Notes: generated by a model not told the origin, from the letters alone. DNA of 64,000 nt from an uncultured Clostridia bacterium (GCA_934154445.1 CAKPGC010000001.1:93414-157413); one strand, 5' to 3'. Positions 43,889-50,327 are shown, counted from the first letter of the stretch. Program-made: numbers and translations.

Positions 43889-44497
43889 TTACTTGTAATT
43901 TACTATTTCATTTATTTGTTCTATTGTTATTGGCCCTTCTCTTAAAATTTTTATTTCATCAGTACTACAATCTATAATAGTACTTCCTTTTGAAAAAATC
44001 ACATTTCCTTCCATCATTCCATCTAATTTTGGACACATTTTTTCTATTTCATCTAAACTAGTACAAGTAGGTTCTCCACTTTGATTGGCACTTGTCATAA
44101 ATATTGGACTTTCTAATTCTAGAATTAATTTTTTTATTGTTTCTGATGTTGCCATTCTAATTGCAATTGTATCTTTTCCATTTGTTACATATTCCGGTAA
44201 ATCCCTGTTTTTCTTTAATACTAATGTAATTGGTCCAGGCATAAATGATTTAATTAATTTTTTTGCTACATCATTTACAATAGCTATACTTTTTATCTGT
44301 TCATCGTTTGCACACATTACAGGAAAAGCCTTTTTTATTGGACGATTTTTTACAGTTATTAATTTATCATGTGCTGTCTCTGAATTTATTCTAGCACATA
44401 TACCAAAAACAGTATCAGTTGGCACACTAATTACACCATCATTTTTTAATATTTTAACTAGCTTTTCAATTTCATTCTTTTTATATCTTTTTATCAT
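43889..44497 (-). CDS. tsaC: L-threonylcarbamoyladenylate synthase (YrdC/YwlC/TsaC family)
   Basis: 202 aa YrdC-domain protein (PTDTVFGICARINSE...). Confidence 0.8.
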   Translation of the reverse strand: MIKRYKKNEIEKLVKILKNDGVISVPTDTVFGICARINSETAHDKLITVKNRPIKKAFPVMCANDEQIKSIAIVNDVAKKLIKSFMPGPITLVLKKNRDLPEYVTNGKDTIAIRMATSETIKKLILELESPIFMTSANQSGEPTCTSLDEIEKMCPKLDGMMEGNVIFSKGSTIIDCSTDEIKILREGPITIEQINEIVNYK

Positions 44498-44611: not shown

Positions 44612-45253
44612 GTGAAATATTTTAATTCTATAACCTGCAACGTTGATTCAATTTATGAACTTTTTGATGATTTATTCATTTCACCTGTTGACTGTGAAGA
44701 TAATGGAGTTTTTACTGAAAAGCACTGTTTTAGTTTTATTTTCTCTTTTTTGCCTTTATGGTTTAACTCTAATATTGACAATTTTAATAATCAATTTTTC
44801 AAAGCATTATTAACAACAATAGAAATATTAGAAGAAGAATTAAAAACAACAATTGGTAAGTTAATAGCCAAAGAAACAATAATAAATAATTGGAATAATT
44901 GCAATTATTTTAAAAATGGTATTTTGGAAATTCCATCTCAAACACTAGATTGGATGGAAACTGTTGTTAATATTAATGCAACAATAGTAAAAAACAATCC
45001 TATTAACTTTGTAATTTTTCCATATCCAAATGGTGGTTGGGCTGCACAATGCGTTCCTCCATCTTTAGAAAAGAAATTCAATCAGAGAATTGCTTTTCCA
45101 AAAGAATGGGCAGGACAGACTGATAAGCTCCCCAAAATATCTGGTGTAGTAGATTCAACTTTTTGTCATAATGGTTGTTTTTTCGCCAGAGCCAATAGCA
45201 AAGAGGAAATTATAAAAATGTGTGTCATTGCAACAGCAACTTCTATTAATTAA
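44612..45253 (+). CDS. hypothetical protein (possible truncated DHHA1-like C-terminal fragment)
   Basis: 213 aa with no good RBS; FPYPNGGWAAQCVPPS is weakly DHHA1-like; first gene past the core tsaC. Confidence 0.3.
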   Translation: MKYFNSITCNVDSIYELFDDLFISPVDCEDNGVFTEKHCFSFIFSFLPLWFNSNIDNFNNQFFKALLTTIEILEEELKTTIGKLIAKETIINNWNNCNYFKNGILEIPSQTLDWMETVVNINATIVKNNPINFVIFPYPNGGWAAQCVPPSLEKKFNQRIAFPKEWAGQTDKLPKISGVVDSTFCHNGCFFARANSKEEIIKMCVIATATSIN

Positions 45254-45483: not shown

Positions 45484-46332
45484 TTATCTACATTCATCAA
45501 TAAAGTCTGTTAATTCTAGTTGTTCATATTTTTTATCTTTATCATCAACTTTGTTTTTTTCTTTATAGAAATTACAACAGTCTGTAATAAAACAGTTTTC
45601 ACACTTGCATTTAGATTTGCATATATGTTTGCCTTGTAATAAAATCATTGTATGTGCAATCTGATATGTCAAATAATCTCGTGGTAAACTATTTTCTAAT
45701 CTATCTTTGACAGCCTTTATTTGCTCTTTATTCGTGAAATCTGGATTTTCTGCCCATTTTTCTCTAAAAATCCTTGATGCTACCCTAAAAACATTTATAT
45801 CGACAACCATACTTGGCATATCAAAGCCTAATTCTAACATACAGTCCGCACTTTTATCTCCAACACCAGGCATTTTTAATAATTCTTCTCTAGTTTTGCT
45901 TACAGATTCTTTTTTTGCATTCCAAACATTACCATTATAATATTTTTGTATATATTCAGAAAGCTTAATTATTGTTTGAGCTTTTTTTTGTGGCATACCC
46001 GCCACTTTTATAACTTCTATCATTTCATTTTCATCTGCATTTAATACTTCACTAATAGATTTATATTTGCCCATAAAGGCTCTAACTGCTTTTTTTTCAT
46101 TTTCTAAAGTTGTTCTTAACGACAAAATAATTGCAATTAAAGTATAATATGGATCCTTTCTTTTTTCTTCTATTGGATGAGATGGTCTAGGATATGTTTG
46201 ATTTTCCACAAAAGAATACTTTTCACATAATCTTAATATTATAGTTAATAACTTCTTTGCATCTTCACTTTTATTATACATCTCTATGTTCTCAATAATG
46301 GCATTTTTAGCTTGTTCATCATTTTCTATCAT
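45484..46332 (-). CDS. endonuclease III-like HhH-GPD DNA glycosylase with Cys cluster
   Basis: Aligns with Nth (LIAIILSLRTT, MPGVGDKSADCM, VVDINVFRVASRI, C-x-C-x-C cluster); N-terminal extension. Last gene of a three-gene overlapping operon. Confidence 0.65.
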   Translation of the reverse strand: MIENDEQAKNAIIENIEMYNKSEDAKKLLTIILRLCEKYSFVENQTYPRPSHPIEEKRKDPYYTLIAIILSLRTTLENEKKAVRAFMGKYKSISEVLNADENEMIEVIKVAGMPQKKAQTIIKLSEYIQKYYNGNVWNAKKESVSKTREELLKMPGVGDKSADCMLELGFDMPSMVVDINVFRVASRIFREKWAENPDFTNKEQIKAVKDRLENSLPRDYLTYQIAHTMILLQGKHICKSKCKCENCFITDCCNFYKEKNKVDDKDKKYEQLELTDFIDECR

Positions 46333-46898
46333 TTAAAAACCTCTTTTATTTTTTTTTCTGAATAATTCAAGTAATATTGATTGTTTTCATCCTTATCCAT
46401 TTGAGCAACAGTTTTATCAGAATCAATCGGTCTTAAAACATTACTTAAAGGATAGCTATTTTCTTCTATTTTTAAATTTCCATTATATTTTTGATATTTA
46501 AATGGAATTTCAGTTGTTACTGTCTTATATTCTCCTTTTTCATTCATAAAGCAATATGCTCTAACAATTTCAACTTGTTCTCCTTCAGATAAATATTTAT
46601 CATTAATTATATCTTCTATATAATCTTTAACATTTTCTCTAAGAATTCCTCTCATTTTAATTCCATCATCTATACCGATTATATATTTAAAATTATTATC
46701 TTTGATGCTTGAATATATTTGATTTGCTTTATTATAAGCTCTCACTTCAATATTTCCTTCTTCTTTATCATTTTTTTCTAAATTTTTAATATCATACAAG
46801 CTATAATATTCATAACTCACATTATTTATTTTATTCAATATTTTTGTTACAATTTCAAATTTATCTTTGTTCTTGGTCGCTATTAATATCTTTTTCAT
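46329..46898 (-). CDS. divergent HAM1/Maf-fold (ITPase-like) protein
   Basis: MKKILIATKNKDKFEIVTKIL and ...GIDDGIKM resemble RdgB IIIASGNKGKIREAQEIL / ADDSGIEI from this same window; overlaps both neighbours. Confidence 0.4.
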   Translation of the reverse strand: MKKILIATKNKDKFEIVTKILNKINNVSYEYYSLYDIKNLEKNDKEEGNIEVRAYNKANQIYSSIKDNNFKYIIGIDDGIKMRGILRENVKDYIEDIINDKYLSEGEQVEIVRAYCFMNEKGEYKTVTTEIPFKYQKYNGNLKIEENSYPLSNVLRPIDSDKTVAQMDKDENNQYYLNYSEKKIKEVFK

Positions 46899-48732
46899 TT
46901 ACTTCTCCTTCTAATACCAGATTATAATTTTTTGGGTCCATAGTATAAATTCTCCCTTTTGATATTTCTTCTTGTTTTCTTTTATCCATATTTAGAATAA
47001 TTTCATTCAATGGTAATACATTAAATTGATTCTCAACATACTCTAAATTATTCTTTTCTATTTCTCTTCTTGTCATATATTCTGTTGTATTTCCTTGTTT
47101 TCCATATGTAAATTTAGCAGGTCTTAGAGCAAAAGGAATAAAATTACATCCCAAGAATGATGATGCTTTAAATCCTAAATTAGGATTAATTGTAGTTGTT
47201 ATTGCTTGTAAGTTCTTATTTACTTTACTTTGCTCTTTTAGTTTTTTCCACTCTTGTTCTACTTCATTTATTGAATATTGAAATAAAGAACTCATTATAT
47301 TTTGTGGGGCTGAATTTGAACACCAAGCTCTTGTCATTTCTAATGTATTTTGAGGTTCAATTCCTAAATAATATAATAACTGTTTCTTATATTCTCTATC
47401 TTGTTTAGAAAATGATACCCATGCTATCGGCAATGCTTGTCCTCCAACAAATGCACCATATGATACAAATTCGTCGTCTCGCGGTGTATGTAAATAGTGA
47501 CAGTTTCTAGCTATAAATTGACTAATTTCTTTATCAACTTTTTTATAAATAATATTTTTTAATAATATATTTCCTTTATTTTCAGAGTTATTCAATGTTG
47601 CCATAATCTGCTTTGTAGAATTATTATTATATAAATTACTTAATCTATCAATTTGATTTCGTATTTCTATATTGACTAATTCATAATTCAAGCTCACTCT
47701 TTTATCTGTTAAATACTTCATAAATATATCTAATTTATCTGCTCTATTATTTATTCCACTGTTTATTTCTCTAAGTAATGCTATATCACCTTTAAATAAT
47801 TCTTCTATCTTATATGAACACATCTTTATTAAAACTTGATATTCTAAATCTGTTTTACTTATATATTCTTTTCCTTTTAAAAATTTATCTAAATTTCTAT
47901 CTAAATATGCTTTTATAACTTCTAAAAACGGATTAAAAATCCATTCAAAATTCTGTCTATCTATTGAATTTACATCTTGTAATTGTTTAAAATTTTGTTT
48001 TTCTTTTTCAATTCGTTCTAGCTCTTTAGTTACTACACTTGCTACTTCATCTTCTGAAAGTTCAGTTGTATCTATATAAATTTCATTGTAGACTGAATCT
48101 ATCAAACCTCTAGTTTTATCAATACCATCCCTATTATTTCTTTCTAATACTTCCTTATATGCATCTAATATACTTTCATAAGATTCAGGATTTCTACTAT
48201 ATAATCTTTCAGCTGCTTTTTCATTATTTATATCTAAAAAAATTGTTGTAAATTGTGCTGTATTCATTTCATTAATATTGTGACCTGTTAAAGCATAACA
48301 TCCTTCTCTTTTTACAATATCATTGTTTATAAACTGTAATATTCTCTTTCTTATCAAATCAGATTTAGCAATTATAGCTACAATGCTATTGACTTCTTTG
48401 CTGTACAAACTATCTTCTCTCAGTATTTGCCCGTCTACATTTAGTCTTCCATCTAATATTTCTAATTCCTTTAAAGATTTTTCAATAGTTCGATTCCATT
48501 TGAAAACTTCTTGCAATATTCTCTTTTCTTCTCTAATATCATTTTTATATAAGCTTTCAAGATTAGGATTTATATTTGTTTTTTGAAATATACAAATTGC
48601 TATATATCTATACAATTGTCCCGTATCTAAAACATTAATATTGTACTTTTTCTTTAGATTGTCCAACAATGAATTTTTTCCAGAAGCAACTGGTCCAATG
48701 ATAAATAAATTTTGGTTCATATTTTCCTCCAA
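46861..48732 (-). CDS. large protein with N-terminal (d)CMP-kinase-like P-loop domain and unknown C-terminal 400 aa
   Basis: IIGPVASGKNS...LDTGQLYRY mirrors the Cmk P-loop and LDTGAxYR motifs; the rest is novel. Confidence 0.5.
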   Translation of the reverse strand: MEENMNQNLFIIGPVASGKNSLLDNLKKKYNINVLDTGQLYRYIAICIFQKTNINPNLESLYKNDIREEKRILQEVFKWNRTIEKSLKELEILDGRLNVDGQILREDSLYSKEVNSIVAIIAKSDLIRKRILQFINNDIVKREGCYALTGHNINEMNTAQFTTIFLDINNEKAAERLYSRNPESYESILDAYKEVLERNNRDGIDKTRGLIDSVYNEIYIDTTELSEDEVASVVTKELERIEKEKQNFKQLQDVNSIDRQNFEWIFNPFLEVIKAYLDRNLDKFLKGKEYISKTDLEYQVLIKMCSYKIEELFKGDIALLREINSGINNRADKLDIFMKYLTDKRVSLNYELVNIEIRNQIDRLSNLYNNNSTKQIMATLNNSENKGNILLKNIIYKKVDKEISQFIARNCHYLHTPRDDEFVSYGAFVGGQALPIAWVSFSKQDREYKKQLLYYLGIEPQNTLEMTRAWCSNSAPQNIMSSLFQYSINEVEQEWKKLKEQSKVNKNLQAITTTINPNLGFKASSFLGCNFIPFALRPAKFTYGKQGNTTEYMTRREIEKNNLEYVENQFNVLPLNEIILNMDKRKQEEISKGRIYTMDPKNYNLVLEGEVNEKDINSDQEQR

Positions 48733-48800
48733 CTAATTATTATAATAGATTATTTTCTTTAATTGAATTATTTATTGTGTTATGGCTATAATGTAGATAT

Positions 48801-50040
48801 GGAAATAAATTCCATATCTACATTATAATACAAAAACATACTAAATTCAATATGTTTACTGAAAATTTAAGCTACACTAAAAAAACTTTATGTAATGTAT
48901 TTTCTATGTGAATTTTTTACATTATTTTGATTAACCATAGCATACTCCATAGTAGTATCTATTTTTATATGTCCTAATAATTTTTGAACTTGTTCTATTG
49001 GCATACCTTTATCAATAGCCATTGTTGCCATTGTTCTTCTAAATTTATGTGGATGAACTTTATTTATATTCGCTTCTTTCCCTAAATTTCTAATTAAAAT
49101 TTTAATCCCTGATATTCCTAATCTGTTATAAGGTTTTATAAGTGATACAAATAATGCTTCATTATCATCAGTTCTTGTTTCAAGATATTTCTTTATATAC
49201 ATTTTACTCTTTGCACTAAAATAAACTTCTCTTTCACTATTACCTTTTCCTAAAACAATACAACTTCTTTCTTGAAAATCCATATCTGATATATTTAATC
49301 TTGTAATTTCTCCAACTCTCATACCAGTTGAAATTAATAGTTCTAATATTGCTAAATCCCTTACATTTGAACAAGTATCTCTTAACTTTTCCAAATTTTC
49401 ATCTGTTAATGTTTCTTTTACTCTTCTAGTAGTCTTTACTTTATGAATTCTTCTTACTGGACTTTTTACAATATAGTCCTCATTTTCCAACCAAGCAAAG
49501 AAACTTGATAAAGTTCTTCTTATATTATCTATCGTTACCATACCTGCATTTGAATTATTTTTATAATCTGCTAAATAGTTTCTTAATGTTTCAGTATTAA
49601 TTTCATTTATTGGCAGGTTTACAGCATCAAACATTTTATTTATAGTATCTCTGTAATAATTTAAAGTTCTTTTTGAACACCCTTCGATTTCTTTAGATGA
49701 TATAAACCTATTTAGAATGTCTTCATTATTCCTCTGTATTTCTTCTTTTTGACTTTGTTCTAATTTCTCAATTTTATAATATAAACATATTTCTGTAAGT
49801 GTTTCTTTTAATTTTATTCTTTGGTTATTGTCTAAAAAATCTTCTGTTGCATTAATTACTTTTTCCACAAATAATTCTCTCATGACAATTACCTCCTTAC
49901 ATTTTTTTGATAGTTTGCAGTATATAGAACTCTATCTATATTATACAATATTTAATTGACATAATAAAAGATGAGCATATTTTATATACCCATCCAAATA
50001 TTTATATTTTTTTCAAATTTCAAAATTCAATCTCAGCGAC
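48801..50040. repeat. integrase module, copy 1 (about 1.24 kb: downstream hairpin, integrase gene, about 150 bp upstream region); repeated at 53321..54372
   Basis: Near-identical flanks (GGAAATAAATTCCATATCTACATTATAAT... and ...CAATCTCAGCGACAAATTAC) bound both integrase genes. Confidence 0.7.
48888..49883 (-). CDS. tyrosine-type site-specific recombinase/integrase (XerC/D-phage integrase family), intact copy
   Basis: 331 aa; box I ...STGMRVGE..., box II HPHKFRRT...LLGH...T..Y. Confidence 0.85.
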   Translation of the reverse strand: MRELFVEKVINATEDFLDNNQRIKLKETLTEICLYYKIEKLEQSQKEEIQRNNEDILNRFISSKEIEGCSKRTLNYYRDTINKMFDAVNLPINEINTETLRNYLADYKNNSNAGMVTIDNIRRTLSSFFAWLENEDYIVKSPVRRIHKVKTTRRVKETLTDENLEKLRDTCSNVRDLAILELLISTGMRVGEITRLNISDMDFQERSCIVLGKGNSEREVYFSAKSKMYIKKYLETRTDDNEALFVSLIKPYNRLGISGIKILIRNLGKEANINKVHPHKFRRTMATMAIDKGMPIEQVQKLLGHIKIDTTMEYAMVNQNNVKNSHRKYIT

Positions 50041-50327
50041 AAATTACTATTCATTTATTATAAGTTTATTTTTTTGACTCTTTATCTTTAAATAGATATA
50101 ATAAATATAGAAAATAACAAATCCACAAAAGTGGTTTTGCCGAATCAAGTTTGAAAAAACTCACACCTAACTCGCCAAAGTTACAGATGTAAGTTTTTTT
50201 TATTTATGTAGTTGCTTATCACTCCAGTTTTGTATAAGAACTGCTGTCAACGCAACGTTTAATGTTAAAGAAAACATTAAGGATGATATTAAAAATAGTA
50301 TCACTTTAATCATAAACAATTGTCACA

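What the first reader, a model, noticed from the sequence alone, without database searches (positions are those of the whole stretch)
46329..48732. Three overlapping genes next to the integrase: P-loop (d)CMP-kinase-like large protein, HAM1-like NTPase fold, Nth-like DNA glycosylase — candidate nucleotide/DNA-modification or defence module
A 623-aa protein carries a Cmk-like P-loop (IIGPVASGKNS...LDTGQLYRY) on a novel 400-aa C-terminus. Next is a 189-aa protein resembling the ITPase/HAM1 fold of the window's own rdgB. Third is a 282-aa endonuclease III-like HhH-GPD glycosylase with a Cys cluster. The three are translationally coupled: starts overlap the preceding stops. They sit directly beside a tyrosine integrase, inside a cargo island that also contains TatD and a nucleoside 2-deoxyribosyltransferase-like gene. 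Kinase + NTP pyrophosphatase + glycosylase is the enzymology expected for sanitising or sensing non-canonical nucleotides. This fits an anti-phage system aimed at hypermodified DNA, or conversely a DNA-modification cassette. I know of no named system with this composition.
Basis: inference. Interest (0 to 1): 0.7.

Follow-up and report, generated by a model that had tools for sequence, protein, structure and literature searches.

The report
Mobile Mom-like base-modification three-gene module
Three overlapping genes beside an integrase form a conserved, mobile operon (a CMP-kinase-like domain fused to a phage-Mu-Mom-like base acyltransferase, a HAM1-type nucleotide pyrophosphatase, and an endonuclease-III-type DNA glycosylase); it most likely makes and polices an unusual modified DNA base and is absent from the defence-system library and the papers I could search.

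Summary
Gene A runs 46861-48720 and is 619 aa: its true start is ATG 48720, behind a GGAGG ribosome-binding site. Gene B is 46329-46898. Gene C is 45484-46332, outside the stated coordinates.

The window also carries ordinary cmk and rdgB genes, so A and B are extra paralogs. The A-B-C order holds in 12 different genomic contexts, down to 31% identity of A. These include a site between a Type III and an MmeI-like restriction-modification system.

One distant relative fuses a HAM1 domain directly to the Mom-like module. PADLOC has no model for A or B, and my literature searches found no description.

Best reading (about 0.4): a base modification handled at the mononucleotide level (NTP to NMP, acylation of the base, re-phosphorylation), with a glycosylase that reads the modification in DNA. 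Chemistry and biological role are untested.

The parts
46861..48720 (-). Gene A, 619 aa (ATG 48720). It is a fusion of a Cmk-like P-loop kinase, a helical domain and a Mom-like GNAT domain. Residue numbers in this report use the 623-aa ORF numbering that starts at the TTG at 48732; subtract 4 for the real protein.
   Evidence: ORF. GGAGG RBS and ATG start. 74 homologues with the same architecture.
48019..48702 (-). Cmk-like NMP-kinase domain of A (residues 11-238).
   Evidence: Pfam Cytidylate_kin E 1.3e-17. TIGR00017 scores 50.9 bits against a cut-off of 135.55. PDB Cmk hits down to E 1e-10. 26% identical to the window's own Cmk. Kept: K19, T37, Y41, R42, R128 (= E. coli R110), R198 (= R181), D202 (= D185). 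Changed: R131 to H151 and D132 to N152; R188 is not kept.
47548..48000 (-). All-helical middle domain of A (residues 245-395). It is the most variable part of the protein.
46933..47547 (-). Mom-like GNAT domain of A (residues 396-600), with invariant motifs CHYLHTPR, EMTRAW, MSSLFQ and LQAITTxINPNLGFxAS.
46329..46898 (-). Gene B, 189 aa, a divergent HAM1/ITPase-fold NTP pyrophosphatase.
   Evidence: Pfam Ham1p_like covers the N-terminus only, 20.3 bits, below the gathering score of 22.5. AF2 pLDDT 88.7. Foldseek: dITP/XTP pyrophosphatases E 2.7e-10, ITPA TM 0.69. hhalign against the window's RdgB gives E 7e-4 with the DD motif aligned. Invariant T8, N10, K13, E46, G48, K57 and D77-D78-G79.
45484..46332 (-). 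Gene C, 282 aa, an EndoIII-type HhH-GPD glycosylase/AP-lyase with a 4Fe-4S cluster and a family-specific N-terminal motif, YSFxxxQTYPRPxHP.
   Evidence: HhH-GPD E 8e-14; TIGR01083 nth 101.6 bits against a cut-off of 211.7. PDB EndoIII E 2.8e-17 and Mig.MthI (1kea) E 6.9e-16. Invariant K160, D178, C238, C244, C247 and C253 in 11 orthologues. PADLOC REase_II 'nicking endonuclease' E 1.4e-18.
48789..48850 (-). Promoter-like -35/-10 pair (48850-48822) overlapping a perfect 17-bp-arm palindrome (48789-48827), upstream of gene A. A diverged copy lies at 53308-53346, upstream of the second cassette.
   Evidence: Its function as operator, terminator or recombination site was not tested.
48888..49883 (-). 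XerA-like tyrosine recombinase. It is linked to the triad only in close relatives.
   Evidence: NF040815 scores 249 bits against a cut-off of 220. The block of integrase plus triad (window 45549-49953) is shared with L008, where both flanks differ. The integrase is absent next to the triad in L001-L005, L011, L012, L017-L021 and L025.

Best explanation
What it is (well supported): a horizontally mobile three-gene operon built around a Mom-family GNAT acyl/aminoacyl-transferase.

How it most likely works (inferred): the modification is handled at the mononucleotide level, in the order known from phage pre-replicative hypermodification pathways.
1. B, a HAM1-fold pyrophosphatase with its catalytic Asp-Asp intact, converts a (d)NTP to the (d)NMP.
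2. The Mom-like domain of A transfers an acyl or aminoacyl group onto the exocyclic amine of the base. By analogy with Mom, the donor would be an activated ester such as aminoacyl-tRNA.
3. The fused Cmk-like domain of A re-phosphorylates the modified NMP to the NDP, which returns it to the nucleotide pool and so to DNA. Its base- and phosphate-contacting residues are altered (R131 to H, D132 to N).
4. C, an EndoIII-type glycosylase/AP-lyase, acts on DNA according to whether a base carries that adduct. It would either excise the adduct or cut DNA that lacks it.

Together these steps would make the module a self/non-self or anti-invader (conflict) system rather than a metabolic one.

Shown here: gene structure, folds, which catalytic residues are kept or lost, conserved gene order, mobility, and the domain fusions.
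Inferred: every chemical step, the identity of the base and of the acyl donor, and the biological role.
For: (1) Conserved operon. A-B-C are colinear in 12 distinct flanking contexts, with A at 31-100% identity. The hosts are mostly MAGs labelled Clostridia, Clostridiales, Lachnospiraceae or Bacilli where named; many contigs are unlabelled.

(3) The coupling to free nucleotides is physical. The Mom-like module is fused to an NMP-kinase-like domain in this family. In the distant relative P0289 it is fused to a bona fide Ham1p_like domain (E 1.3e-11). Both partner enzymes act on mononucleotides.

(4) Nucleotide enzymes recur as accessory genes:
- a PfkB kinase directly after C in L019 and L025;
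- a CoaE-like P-loop protein in L017;
- NUDIX in L014, L016 and L027;
- Sua5/YrdC, with an acylphosphatase or a Kae1-like protein, in L014 and L027-L029.

(5) B keeps the catalytic DD motif. The Kongming sensor KomB has lost it (bioRxiv 10.1101/2024.12.20.629578).

(6) C keeps the EndoIII Lys, Asp and Fe-S cysteines in all 11 orthologues.

(7) Conflict-type context. In L025 the triad sits between a Type III and an MmeI-like R-M system, next to a serine recombinase. In L019 it is beside a C5 methyltransferase. In L002-L004 it is beside serine recombinases. In the window and L008 it forms a 4.4-kb unit with an integrase. It is decayed in L009 and L012.

(8) It is not housekeeping: the window has its own cmk and rdgB.
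Against: - Mu Mom, the only characterised relative, acts after replication on double-stranded DNA, not on nucleotides (PMC13219725).
- Two residues essential or important in Mom, D149 and R151, appear to be Asn in family A. The register is a manual alignment anchored on G153/G520 and N163-F164/N530-F531, so the chemistry may differ from Mom in unknown ways.
- The kinase-like domain lacks R131 and R188, whose Ala mutants inactivate Cmk (PMC3603445). It might therefore bind a nucleotide or nucleic-acid end without phosphorylating it.
- A pathway that both makes a modified dNTP and carries a pyrophosphatase could be a futile cycle unless B acts on the unmodified NTP.
- A 3.3-kb cassette that rewrites the dNTP pool would be hard to acquire by horizontal transfer if C attacked unmodified DNA.
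- The defence-island association rests on a handful of loci and not on statistics.
Confidence: 0.4

Rival explanations
1. Post-replicative 'momylation' restriction-modification analogue. The Mom-like domain marks adenines (N6) in the cell's own double-stranded DNA using aminoacyl-tRNA, as Mu Mom does, and the variable helical domain supplies target recognition. C is then either the restriction arm, which nicks DNA lacking the mark, or a proofreading or eraser arm. The kinase domain and B only clean up modified nucleotides released by DNA turnover.
For: - Mom is the closest known protein, and it works on dsDNA (PMC13219725).
- Mom domains fused to restriction-endonuclease domains have been read as R-M-like (PMC7824862).
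- A-like plus C persists without B in the Rhizobiaceae locus L013.
- The helical domain is the most variable part of A, as target-recognition domains are.
- C matches a PADLOC model for Type II nicking endonucleases, and is about as close to the R-M-associated repair glycosylase Mig.MthI as to EndoIII.
- R-M neighbours occur in L025 and L019.
Against: - It does not explain why the Mom-like module is repeatedly fused to mononucleotide enzymes (Cmk-like here, HAM1 in P0289), nor the PfkB, NUDIX and CoaE-like accessory genes.
- C is as conserved as a repair enzyme and shows no variable specificity region.
- Mom D149 and R151, placed near the flipped adenine in the published AF3 model, are not conserved (and manual alignment).
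Confidence: 0.25
2. Three-tier sanitation and repair of one particular non-canonical (for example N-acylated) base, close to the first reader's 'sanitising' idea. B hydrolyses the aberrant (d)NTP to the NMP. The GNAT domain of A removes or transfers away the adduct on the NMP. The fused kinase returns the cleaned NMP to the pool. C excises the same lesion from DNA.
For: - The enzyme order B, then GNAT, then kinase fits a salvage route as well as a synthetic one.
- HAM1 enzymes are classic house-cleaning enzymes.
- C has full EndoIII repair machinery.
- B-like genes also occur alone among housekeeping genes, next to an ASCH gene, in about 0.8-Mb oral-metagenome contigs. ASCH proteins deacylate N4-acylcytidines (PMC6972931, abstract).
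- ASCH genes also lie near the triad in the window (52878-53336) and in L005.
Against: - GNAT enzymes transfer acyl groups onto amines. Use as a deacylase would be unusual.
- A dedicated repair pathway would not be expected on a 3-4 kb mobile cassette with integrases and R-M neighbours, nor to decay in close relatives.
- The ASCH linkage is loose (4-8 kb) in two of the three cases.
Confidence: 0.15
3. Kongming-like nucleotide-signalling or abortive-infection defence. A produces a base-modified nucleotide signal on infection, B senses or degrades it, and C is the DNA-damaging effector.
For: - A HAM1-like protein is the dITP sensor in the three-gene Kongming system, where nucleotide kinases and a base-modifying enzyme generate the signal (bioRxiv 10.1101/2024.12.20.629578).
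- The triad sits in a defence-island context in L025.
Against: - Defensive HAM1s invariably replace the catalytic Asp by His and are tied to a SIR2 effector. B keeps DD, and no SIR2 gene or adenosine deaminase is present.
- PADLOC gives no hit for A or B.
- No EndoIII-type enzyme is known to be activated by a ligand.
Confidence: 0.05
4. Ordinary housekeeping genes (cmk, rdgB, nth) that merely lie side by side.
For: Public annotation calls homologues of A '(d)CMP kinase'.
Against: - Bona fide cmk (E 1.9e-75) and rdgB (E 3.5e-55) lie at 28410-29676.
- A, B and C all score far below the NCBIfam equivalog cut-offs.
- A carries about 380 extra residues that include the Mom-like domain.
- The trio moves as a unit between unrelated loci.
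Confidence: 0.01

Closest known systems
Bacteriophage Mu Mom (PF25680; PDB 8bv8), a tRNA-dependent DNA adenine-N6 modifying GNAT
   Same: - H58/Y59, R111 and S124 are conserved as H412/Y413, R468 and S481.
- A helix-containing insertion after the GNAT core seems to be retained.
   Different: - Only 12% identity. The Pfam match covers only the first half of the model and sits exactly at threshold.
- D149 and R151 appear as Asn, and Y159 as Phe.
- The domain is embedded in a 619-aa protein behind a kinase-like and a helical domain.
- The gene is chromosomal and integrase-borne in bacteria. It was not found in phage genomes, IMG/VR or plasmids.
- It always comes with a glycosylase.
- Donor and acceptor are unknown.
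Phage pre-replicative hypermodification pathways, such as T4 dCTPase (gp56), dCMP hydroxymethylase (gp42) and dNMP kinase (gp1), plus nucleases against unmodified DNA (from my own knowledge; not checked in a paper here)
   Same: The same logical set of activities: an NTP pyrophosphatase, a base-modifying enzyme, an NMP kinase and a DNA-cleaving enzyme. Fusion of the modifying domain to the kinase or to the pyrophosphatase fits consecutive steps.
   Different: - All four proteins belong to different families.
- The host here is a bacterium and not a phage.
- Acyl or aminoacyl transfer replaces hydroxymethylation.
- Nothing shows that DNA is modified in bulk.
Kongming defence system (KomA adenosine deaminase, KomB HAM1-like sensor, KomC SIR2)
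   Same: A three-gene system that combines a base-modifying enzyme, nucleotide-kinase chemistry and a HAM1-fold protein. It shows that HAM1 paralogs can be recruited to immunity.
   Different: - KomB has lost the catalytic Asp (His instead), whereas B keeps Asp-Asp.
- The triad has no SIR2 and no deaminase.
- The kinase is encoded by the system itself and not by the phage.
Endonuclease III (Nth) and the R-M-associated mismatch glycosylase Mig.MthI (PDB 1kea)
   Same: HhH-GPD fold and a 4Fe-4S cluster. C keeps the EndoIII Lys and Asp (bifunctional type). Like Mig, it is encoded next to a DNA-modifying enzyme.
   Different: - It scores below the nth equivalog cut-off.
- It has an invariant extra N-terminal motif, YSFxxxQTYPRPxHP.
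- Its substrate is unknown.
- Mig lacks the catalytic Lys.
TmcA/NAT10-type enzymes (P-loop ATPase domain plus GNAT domain that acetylates cytidine N4 in RNA)
   Same: A P-loop NTPase domain joined to a GNAT domain that acylates the exocyclic amine of a base. TmcA (2zpa) appears in the Foldseek list (rank 21).
   Different: - The P-loop domain here is NMP-kinase-like and not helicase-like.
- TmcA matches only as a generic GNAT.
- No RNA-related partner genes are present.

Membership tests
Mom family (PF25680) | Match to the family HMM at or above the curated threshold | tested here: met
   27.3 bits against a gathering score of 27.1, E 3.3e-6. The match covers profile positions 3-103 of 202 only. 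It is marginal. PHROG 1384 'Mom-like' gives E 0.0015. Relatives score up to 37.5 bits.
Mom family (PF25680) | GNAT fold, with Mom as the closest solved structure | tested here: met
   [not shown]
Mom family (PF25680) | Catalytic residues R111 and S124, plus H58 and Y59 | tested here: met
   R468, S481, H412 and Y413 are invariant in 20 sequences. The register comes from hhalign and agrees with the region matched by Pfam. The residue list is from PMC13219725.
Mom family (PF25680) | Active-site residues D149 and R151 (R151A is inactive in Mom) | tested here: not met
   Manual alignment of the β4-α3 loop (G153/G520, N163-F164/N530-F531) places invariant N516 and N518 at these positions, and F526 at Y159. 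No structural superposition was available to confirm the register.
Mom family (PF25680) | HTH-like insertion (Mom residues 175-209), essential for activity | tested here: inconclusive
   [not shown]
Mom family (PF25680) | Transfers glycine from Gly-tRNA(Gly) to N6 of adenine in dsDNA | not testable with these tools
   This needs biochemistry.
(d)CMP kinase (TIGR00017 / PF02224) | Equivalog-level HMM score | tested here: not met
   50.9 bits against a cut-off of 135.55. The Pfam domain model is passed (64.7 against 26). The real cmk lies at 29017-29676 (253.7 bits).
(d)CMP kinase (TIGR00017 / PF02224) | P-loop Lys, the D-S/T-G-x-x-Y-R NMP motif, and the base-binding Arg110 | tested here: met
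   K19, D36-T37-G38, Y41-R42 and R128 are invariant or nearly so.
(d)CMP kinase (TIGR00017 / PF02224) | Arg131 (phosphate contact), Asp132 (cytosine contact) and Arg188. The R131A and R188A mutants are inactive. | tested here: not met
   The G-R-D motif is replaced by invariant G150-H151 followed by near-invariant N152. The R188 position is variable. Residue roles are from PMC3603445.
HAM1 / RdgB / ITPase (PF01725) | Family HMM threshold | tested here: not met
   20.3 bits against a gathering score of 22.5, N-terminal 63 residues only. A profile of 23 B homologues finds no PDB HAM1 significantly.
HAM1 / RdgB / ITPase (PF01725) | ITPase fold | tested here: met
   Foldseek E 2.7e-10 to a dITP/XTP pyrophosphatase. 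TM is 0.69 to human ITPA and to S. aureus Ham1.
HAM1 / RdgB / ITPase (PF01725) | Catalytic Asp of the DD(S)G motif and the N-terminal T-x-N-x-x-K phosphate motif | tested here: met
   T8, N10, K13 and D77-D78-G79 are invariant. They align with the window RdgB's ASGNKGK and DDSG motifs.
Endonuclease III (TIGR01083) | Equivalog-level HMM score | tested here: not met
   101.6 bits against a cut-off of 211.7. The HhH-GPD Pfam model is passed (52.3 against 26.2).
Endonuclease III (TIGR01083) | Catalytic Lys in the HhH motif, catalytic Asp, and a Cys-x5/6-Cys-x2-Cys-x5-Cys Fe-S cluster | tested here: met
   K160, D178, C238, C244, C247 and C253 are invariant in 11 orthologues. They align with EndoIII structures 1orn and 2abk.
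Kongming (KomABC) | HAM1-like protein with catalytic Asp replaced by His, always paired with a SIR2 effector, plus an adenosine deaminase | tested here: not met
   B keeps DD. No SIR2 or adenosine deaminase domain is present in the triad or its flanks.
Any system in PADLOC-DB v2 | HMM hits to the system's proteins | tested here: not met
   No hit for A or B. C hits only a generic nicking-endonuclease model. DefenseFinder was not available.

The most novel reading that the evidence does not exclude
A cellular (bacterial), mobile pathway builds a Mom-type aminoacyl- or acyl-derived base adduct on a free mononucleotide and feeds it into DNA through its own fused NMP kinase. A dedicated HAM1-type pyrophosphatase and an EndoIII-type glycosylase set which DNA survives. 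This would be pre-replicative DNA hypermodification, or 'poisoned-nucleotide' immunity, outside phages, and would use a tRNA-dependent GNAT on a nucleotide substrate.
Probability: 0.3. Interest if true: 0.85.

Novelty: new variant of a known kind. Interest (0 to 1): 0.68.

Why it matters
Mom's chemistry, in which charged tRNA serves as acyl donor for a DNA base, was established only recently. It was described as founding a new category of GNAT enzymes (PMC13219725).

This module shows that a rare bacterial branch of that family exists: 327 cluster representatives among 1.84 billion proteins. In this branch the Mom-like domain is hard-wired to nucleotide-pool enzymes and to a base-excision glycosylase, and it travels on small mobile cassettes that can sit among restriction systems.

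If the proposed mechanism holds, it would give three things:
- a new route to modified DNA bases in bacteria;
- a new type of modification-dependent self/non-self system;
- new enzyme tools, namely a kinase and a pyrophosphatase specific for an acylated nucleotide and a glycosylase specific for the adduct.

It also corrects public annotation, which calls these proteins '(d)CMP kinase'.

Tried and rejected
- PADLOC scan of the triad and its neighbours: nothing for A or B.
- Sequence search of PDB with profiles of the A C-terminal region and of B: no Mom hit and no significant HAM1 hit. Only fold comparison worked.
- hhalign of the family profile against single-sequence Mu Mom: E 0.24. I used it only for the alignment register.
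- tblastn of A against 50,697 phage genomes: no match. Against plasmids: only ordinary cmk genes. A pattern scan of IMG/VR found no relative. A prophage or plasmid origin is therefore not supported.
- Test for a B-like domain fused inside A-family members, using a B-family HMM: none found. The HAM1 fusion in P0289 was recognised only by Pfam.
- Idea that TatD, the NDT-like gene, the 172-aa GNAT and ASCH are part of the system: rejected for the first three. They are absent next to the triad in every other locus. ASCH is kept only as a weak lead.
- Idea that the nearby TsaC/YrdC gene (43889-44497) belongs to the module: it lies outside the block shared with L008, L009 and L012. It is probably the housekeeping gene, although distant Mom-like relatives are linked to Sua5/YrdC.
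- The Iyer/Aravind papers of 2009 and 2013 on Mom-like systems are not held in the library. I could not check whether they mention this architecture.
The relative geometry of the kinase and GNAT active sites is therefore unknown.

Full report
**1. What is in the sequence**

The window has about 27% G+C. Three minus-strand ORFs lie head to tail:
- A: 46861..48732
- B: 46329..46898
- C: 45484..46332

The listed TTG start of A lies inside its own ribosome-binding site. The minus-strand sequence reads …agTTGGAGGaaaatATGaaccaaaat…. The true start is therefore ATG 48720 and the protein is 619 aa, the same length as its closest homologues. Residue numbers below keep the 623-aa ORF numbering.

B overlaps the end of A by 38 nt. 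C overlaps B by the ATGA tetranucleotide.

A promoter-like -35/-10 pair (48850-48822) overlaps a perfect 17-bp-arm palindrome (48789-48827), just downstream of the integrase gene at 48888-49883.

**2. The three proteins**

*Protein A has three parts.*

Residues 11-238 are cytidylate-kinase-like.
- Pfam gives E 1.3e-17. The NCBIfam cmk equivalog model gives only 50.9 bits against a cut-off of 135.55.
- The domain is 26% identical to the window's own Cmk.
- Against Cmk structures and the Yersinia/E. coli residue roles (PMC3603445), it keeps the P-loop Lys (K19), the D-T-G-x-x-Y-R NMP motif (T37, Y41, R42), the base-binding Arg110 (R128), and R181 and D185 (R198, D202).
- The G-R131-D132 motif is replaced by invariant G150-H151 and near-invariant N152. 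R188 is not kept.
- In Cmk, R131 contacts the phosphate and D132 the cytosine, and the R131A and R188A mutants are dead. So this is a nucleotide-binding, probably phosphotransferring domain, but not an ordinary CMP kinase.

Residues 245-395 are all-helical (AF2). This is the least conserved part, with mean pairwise identity 36%.

Residues 396-600 are extremely conserved (65% mean pairwise identity, with long invariant stretches). They are Mom-like by four independent routes:
- Pfam PF25680 at the gathering score (27.3 against 27.1 bits, first half of the model only);
- the PHROG 'Mom-like DNA modification protein' (E 0.0015);
- Foldseek, with top hit 8bv8 Mu Mom at E 3.8e-7 and generic GNATs at 1e-4 or worse;

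The model used has mean pLDDT 83.5.

Silva et al. (PMC13219725) showed that Mom transfers glycine from Gly-tRNA(Gly) to N6 of adenine in dsDNA, after which the adduct rearranges. They list H58, Y59, R111, S124, D149, R151 and Y159 as active-site residues.
- In family A, H412/Y413, R468 and S481 are invariant and align with H58/Y59, R111 and S124.
- By my manual register, D149 and R151 correspond to invariant N516 and N518, and Y159 to F526.
- The domain is therefore a Mom relative whose acceptor or donor pocket has changed.

*Protein B* scores below the Pfam Ham1 threshold. Its AF2 model (pLDDT 88.7) nevertheless matches dITP/XTP pyrophosphatases: E 2.7e-10, and TM 0.69 to human ITPA. A profile of 23 homologues aligns with the window's RdgB at E 7e-4, placing invariant T8-N10-K13 and D77-D78-G79 on the phosphate-binding and catalytic motifs. 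This differs from the Kongming sensor KomB, where the catalytic Asp is always His.

*Protein C* is EndoIII-like (PDB EndoIII E 2.8e-17; Mig.MthI E 6.9e-16). Eleven orthologues keep the HhH Lys (K160), the Asp (D178) and four cysteines (C238, C244, C247, C253). They also share a family-specific N-terminal motif, YSFxxxQTYPRPxHP. A retained Lys predicts a bifunctional glycosylase/AP-lyase, that is, a nicking enzyme. This fits the PADLOC hit to a 'Type II nicking endonuclease' model.

**3. Not housekeeping, and a real unit**

The window carries a genuine cmk (29017-29676, E 1.9e-75) and a genuine rdgB (28410-28994, E 3.5e-55), adjacent to each other.

A has 74 near-full-length homologues with the same architecture, and the profile search reaches further ones. 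tblastn with A, B and C against all fetched loci shows the three genes colinear wherever A is at least 31% identical. The sets are window/L006/L007, L001, L002-L004, L005, L008, L009, L011, L012, L017/L018, L019, L020/L021 and L025, which gives 12 different flanking contexts.

Exceptions occur only in the most distant relatives:
- L013 (Rhizobiaceae MAG) has an A-like protein that lacks the Cmk-like domain, plus C but not B.
- L016 (Saccharimonadales) has A alone.
- L014 (Streptomyces) has a 437-aa helical-plus-Mom-like protein with NUDIX, Sua5 and a Kae1/HypF-like protein.

B-like genes at 53% identity also stand alone among housekeeping genes, next to an ASCH gene, in about 0.8-Mb contigs from oral metagenomes.

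**4. Mobility and context**

- blastn shows that L008 shares only the block of integrase plus triad (window 45549-49953), inserted after nrdDG there. L012 shares only the triad.
- L009 is 97% identical to the window but has different flanks, and A is truncated at residue 199.
- L012 has frameshifts in A and C.
- In L025 the triad lies between a Type III R-M system with a serine recombinase on one side and an MmeI-like R-M enzyme on the other. In L019 it is next to a C5 methyltransferase. In L002-L004 it is next to two serine recombinases.
- No relative was found in 50,697 phage genomes, in IMG/VR, or in plasmids apart from ordinary cmk genes.
- The helical-plus-Mom-like profile finds only 327 cluster representatives among 1.84 billion proteins.

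**5. Clues to mechanism from the wider family**

The helical-plus-Mom-like core occurs in several forms:
- alone;
- behind the Cmk-like domain;
- behind an extra N-terminal domain followed by the Cmk-like domain;
- behind unidentified N-terminal regions.

In P0289 (785 aa) it lies behind a bona fide Ham1p_like domain (E 1.3e-11). That gene is surrounded by an acylphosphatase, Sua5/YrdC, NUDIX, GIY-YIG, a 2H phosphoesterase and a histidine phosphatase.

In the deeper triad clade, a PfkB kinase follows C in L019 and L025, and a CoaE-like protein follows C in L017.

Thus the Mom-like module is fused, in different lineages, to the two enzymes that interconvert NTP, NMP and NDP. It is also accompanied by further nucleotide enzymes. 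Such fusions are most simply explained if the Mom-like step lies between them, on a mononucleotide.

**6. Explanation and rivals**

My preferred model (confidence about 0.4) has four steps:
- B makes the NMP from the NTP.
- The Mom-like domain acylates or aminoacylates the exocyclic amine of the base.
- The fused, re-specified kinase returns the product to the pool.
- C reads the adduct in DNA.

The whole would serve as a mobile conflict module. Only the anatomy is shown; every chemical step is inferred.

The main rival (0.25) is a Mom-style post-replicative mark on dsDNA, with C as the restriction or proofreading arm. It fits the known activity of Mom, the A-like plus C pair in L013 and the variable helical domain. 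It does not explain the nucleotide-enzyme fusions.

A sanitation and repair route for an acylated base (0.15) uses the same enzyme order in the opposite chemical sense. It would fit the ASCH neighbours, since ASCH proteins deacylate N4-acylcytidine (PMC6972931). It asks a GNAT to deacylate, and it sits oddly with a mobile, decaying cassette.

A Kongming-like signalling system (0.05) fails that system's defining features. The housekeeping reading is refuted.

**7. Comparison with the known, and novelty**

The parts belong to known superfamilies. Mom-type modification with an attached nuclease has been proposed before as R-M-like (PMC7824862).

I found no description of this combination: a Cmk-like/Mom-like fusion, a divergent but catalytically intact HAM1 paralog and a specialised EndoIII paralog. 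It is absent from PADLOC and from nine successful full-text literature searches. I therefore rate it a new variant of a known kind. It could move to 'categorically new' if the nucleotide-level, tRNA-dependent chemistry is confirmed.

**8. Limits**

- All relatives come from metagenomes or MAGs, so the truncations and frameshifts may be assembly errors.
- The D149/R151 correspondence is a manual alignment.
- The defence-island association rests on a few loci.
- No full-length model of A or model of a complex could be made.

Noticed in passing
window 48887-50051 and 53394-54368; palindromes at 48789-48827 and 53308-53346: The integrase gene and its flanks are duplicated at 82-90% identity. The second copy (53404-54198, 264 aa) has an internal deletion. 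Each copy is followed by a similar 39-nt palindrome and then a different cargo operon. The first carries the triad; the second carries ASCH, a 172-aa GNAT, TatD, a DUF4406/NDT-like gene and a 266-aa unknown. This looks like tandem integrase-plus-cassette units.
   Followed up: partly
window 28410-29676: The housekeeping cmk (29017-29676) and rdgB/HAM1 (28410-28994) genes are adjacent and on the same strand. This mirrors the order of the Cmk-like domain of A and the HAM1-like B. The triad's first two activities might descend from a duplicated cmk-rdgB pair. No phylogeny was made.
   Followed up: partly
window 43889-44497; L014 9339-10658; L027 5078-5647: A Sua5/YrdC (TsaC-like) gene lies about 1 kb from gene C in the window. 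It is outside the mobile block and is probably the housekeeping gene. Two distant Mom-like relatives, however, are directly linked to Sua5/YrdC genes, one with a Kae1/HypF-like protein and one with an acylphosphatase. This hints at carbamoyl- or threonylcarbamoyl-adenylate chemistry in those systems.
   Followed up: partly
window 52878-53336; L005 1-274; L022 7594-7998: ASCH-domain genes lie within 0-8 kb of B or B-like genes in three unrelated contexts. The family includes N4-acylcytidine amidohydrolases. The window and L005 copies are 54% identical. This could be chance or a link to acylated cytosine.
   Followed up: partly
window 44612-45253: This plus-strand ORF (GTG start) matches only positions 106-316 of the 318-position MYG1/UPF0160 Pfam model. 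It seems to be a 5'-truncated gene or a pseudogene, lying between tsaC and the triad.
   Followed up: no
L009 4282-6958; L012 8001-11222: Two close relatives show decay of the module. In L009 (97% identical), A begins at residue 199 after unrelated DNA. In L012, A and C are split by frameshifts. These are either real loss of function or MAG assembly errors.
   Followed up: partly
proteins P0222, P0224, P0226 and P0228 (840-868 aa): Some family members carry an extra N-terminal domain of about 200 aa before the Cmk-like domain. It has a conserved Cys…His pattern (GQCAVT … NHxWxE) that recalls transglutaminase-like or papain-like enzymes. Pfam gave no hit.
   Followed up: no
L022-L024 (contigs up to 830 kb, human oral metagenomes): B-like proteins at 53% identity occur without A or C, between a 653-aa PfkB-domain protein and def/secA. 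In these small genomes the subfamily may be an ordinary nucleotide-cleaning enzyme.
   Followed up: partly
window 51477-52256: The TatD gene of the neighbouring cassette matches the QatD model of the Qat anti-phage system only weakly (80.7 bits against a cut-off of 230). It passes the general TatD/YchF model. It is not evidence of a Qat system.
   Followed up: yes
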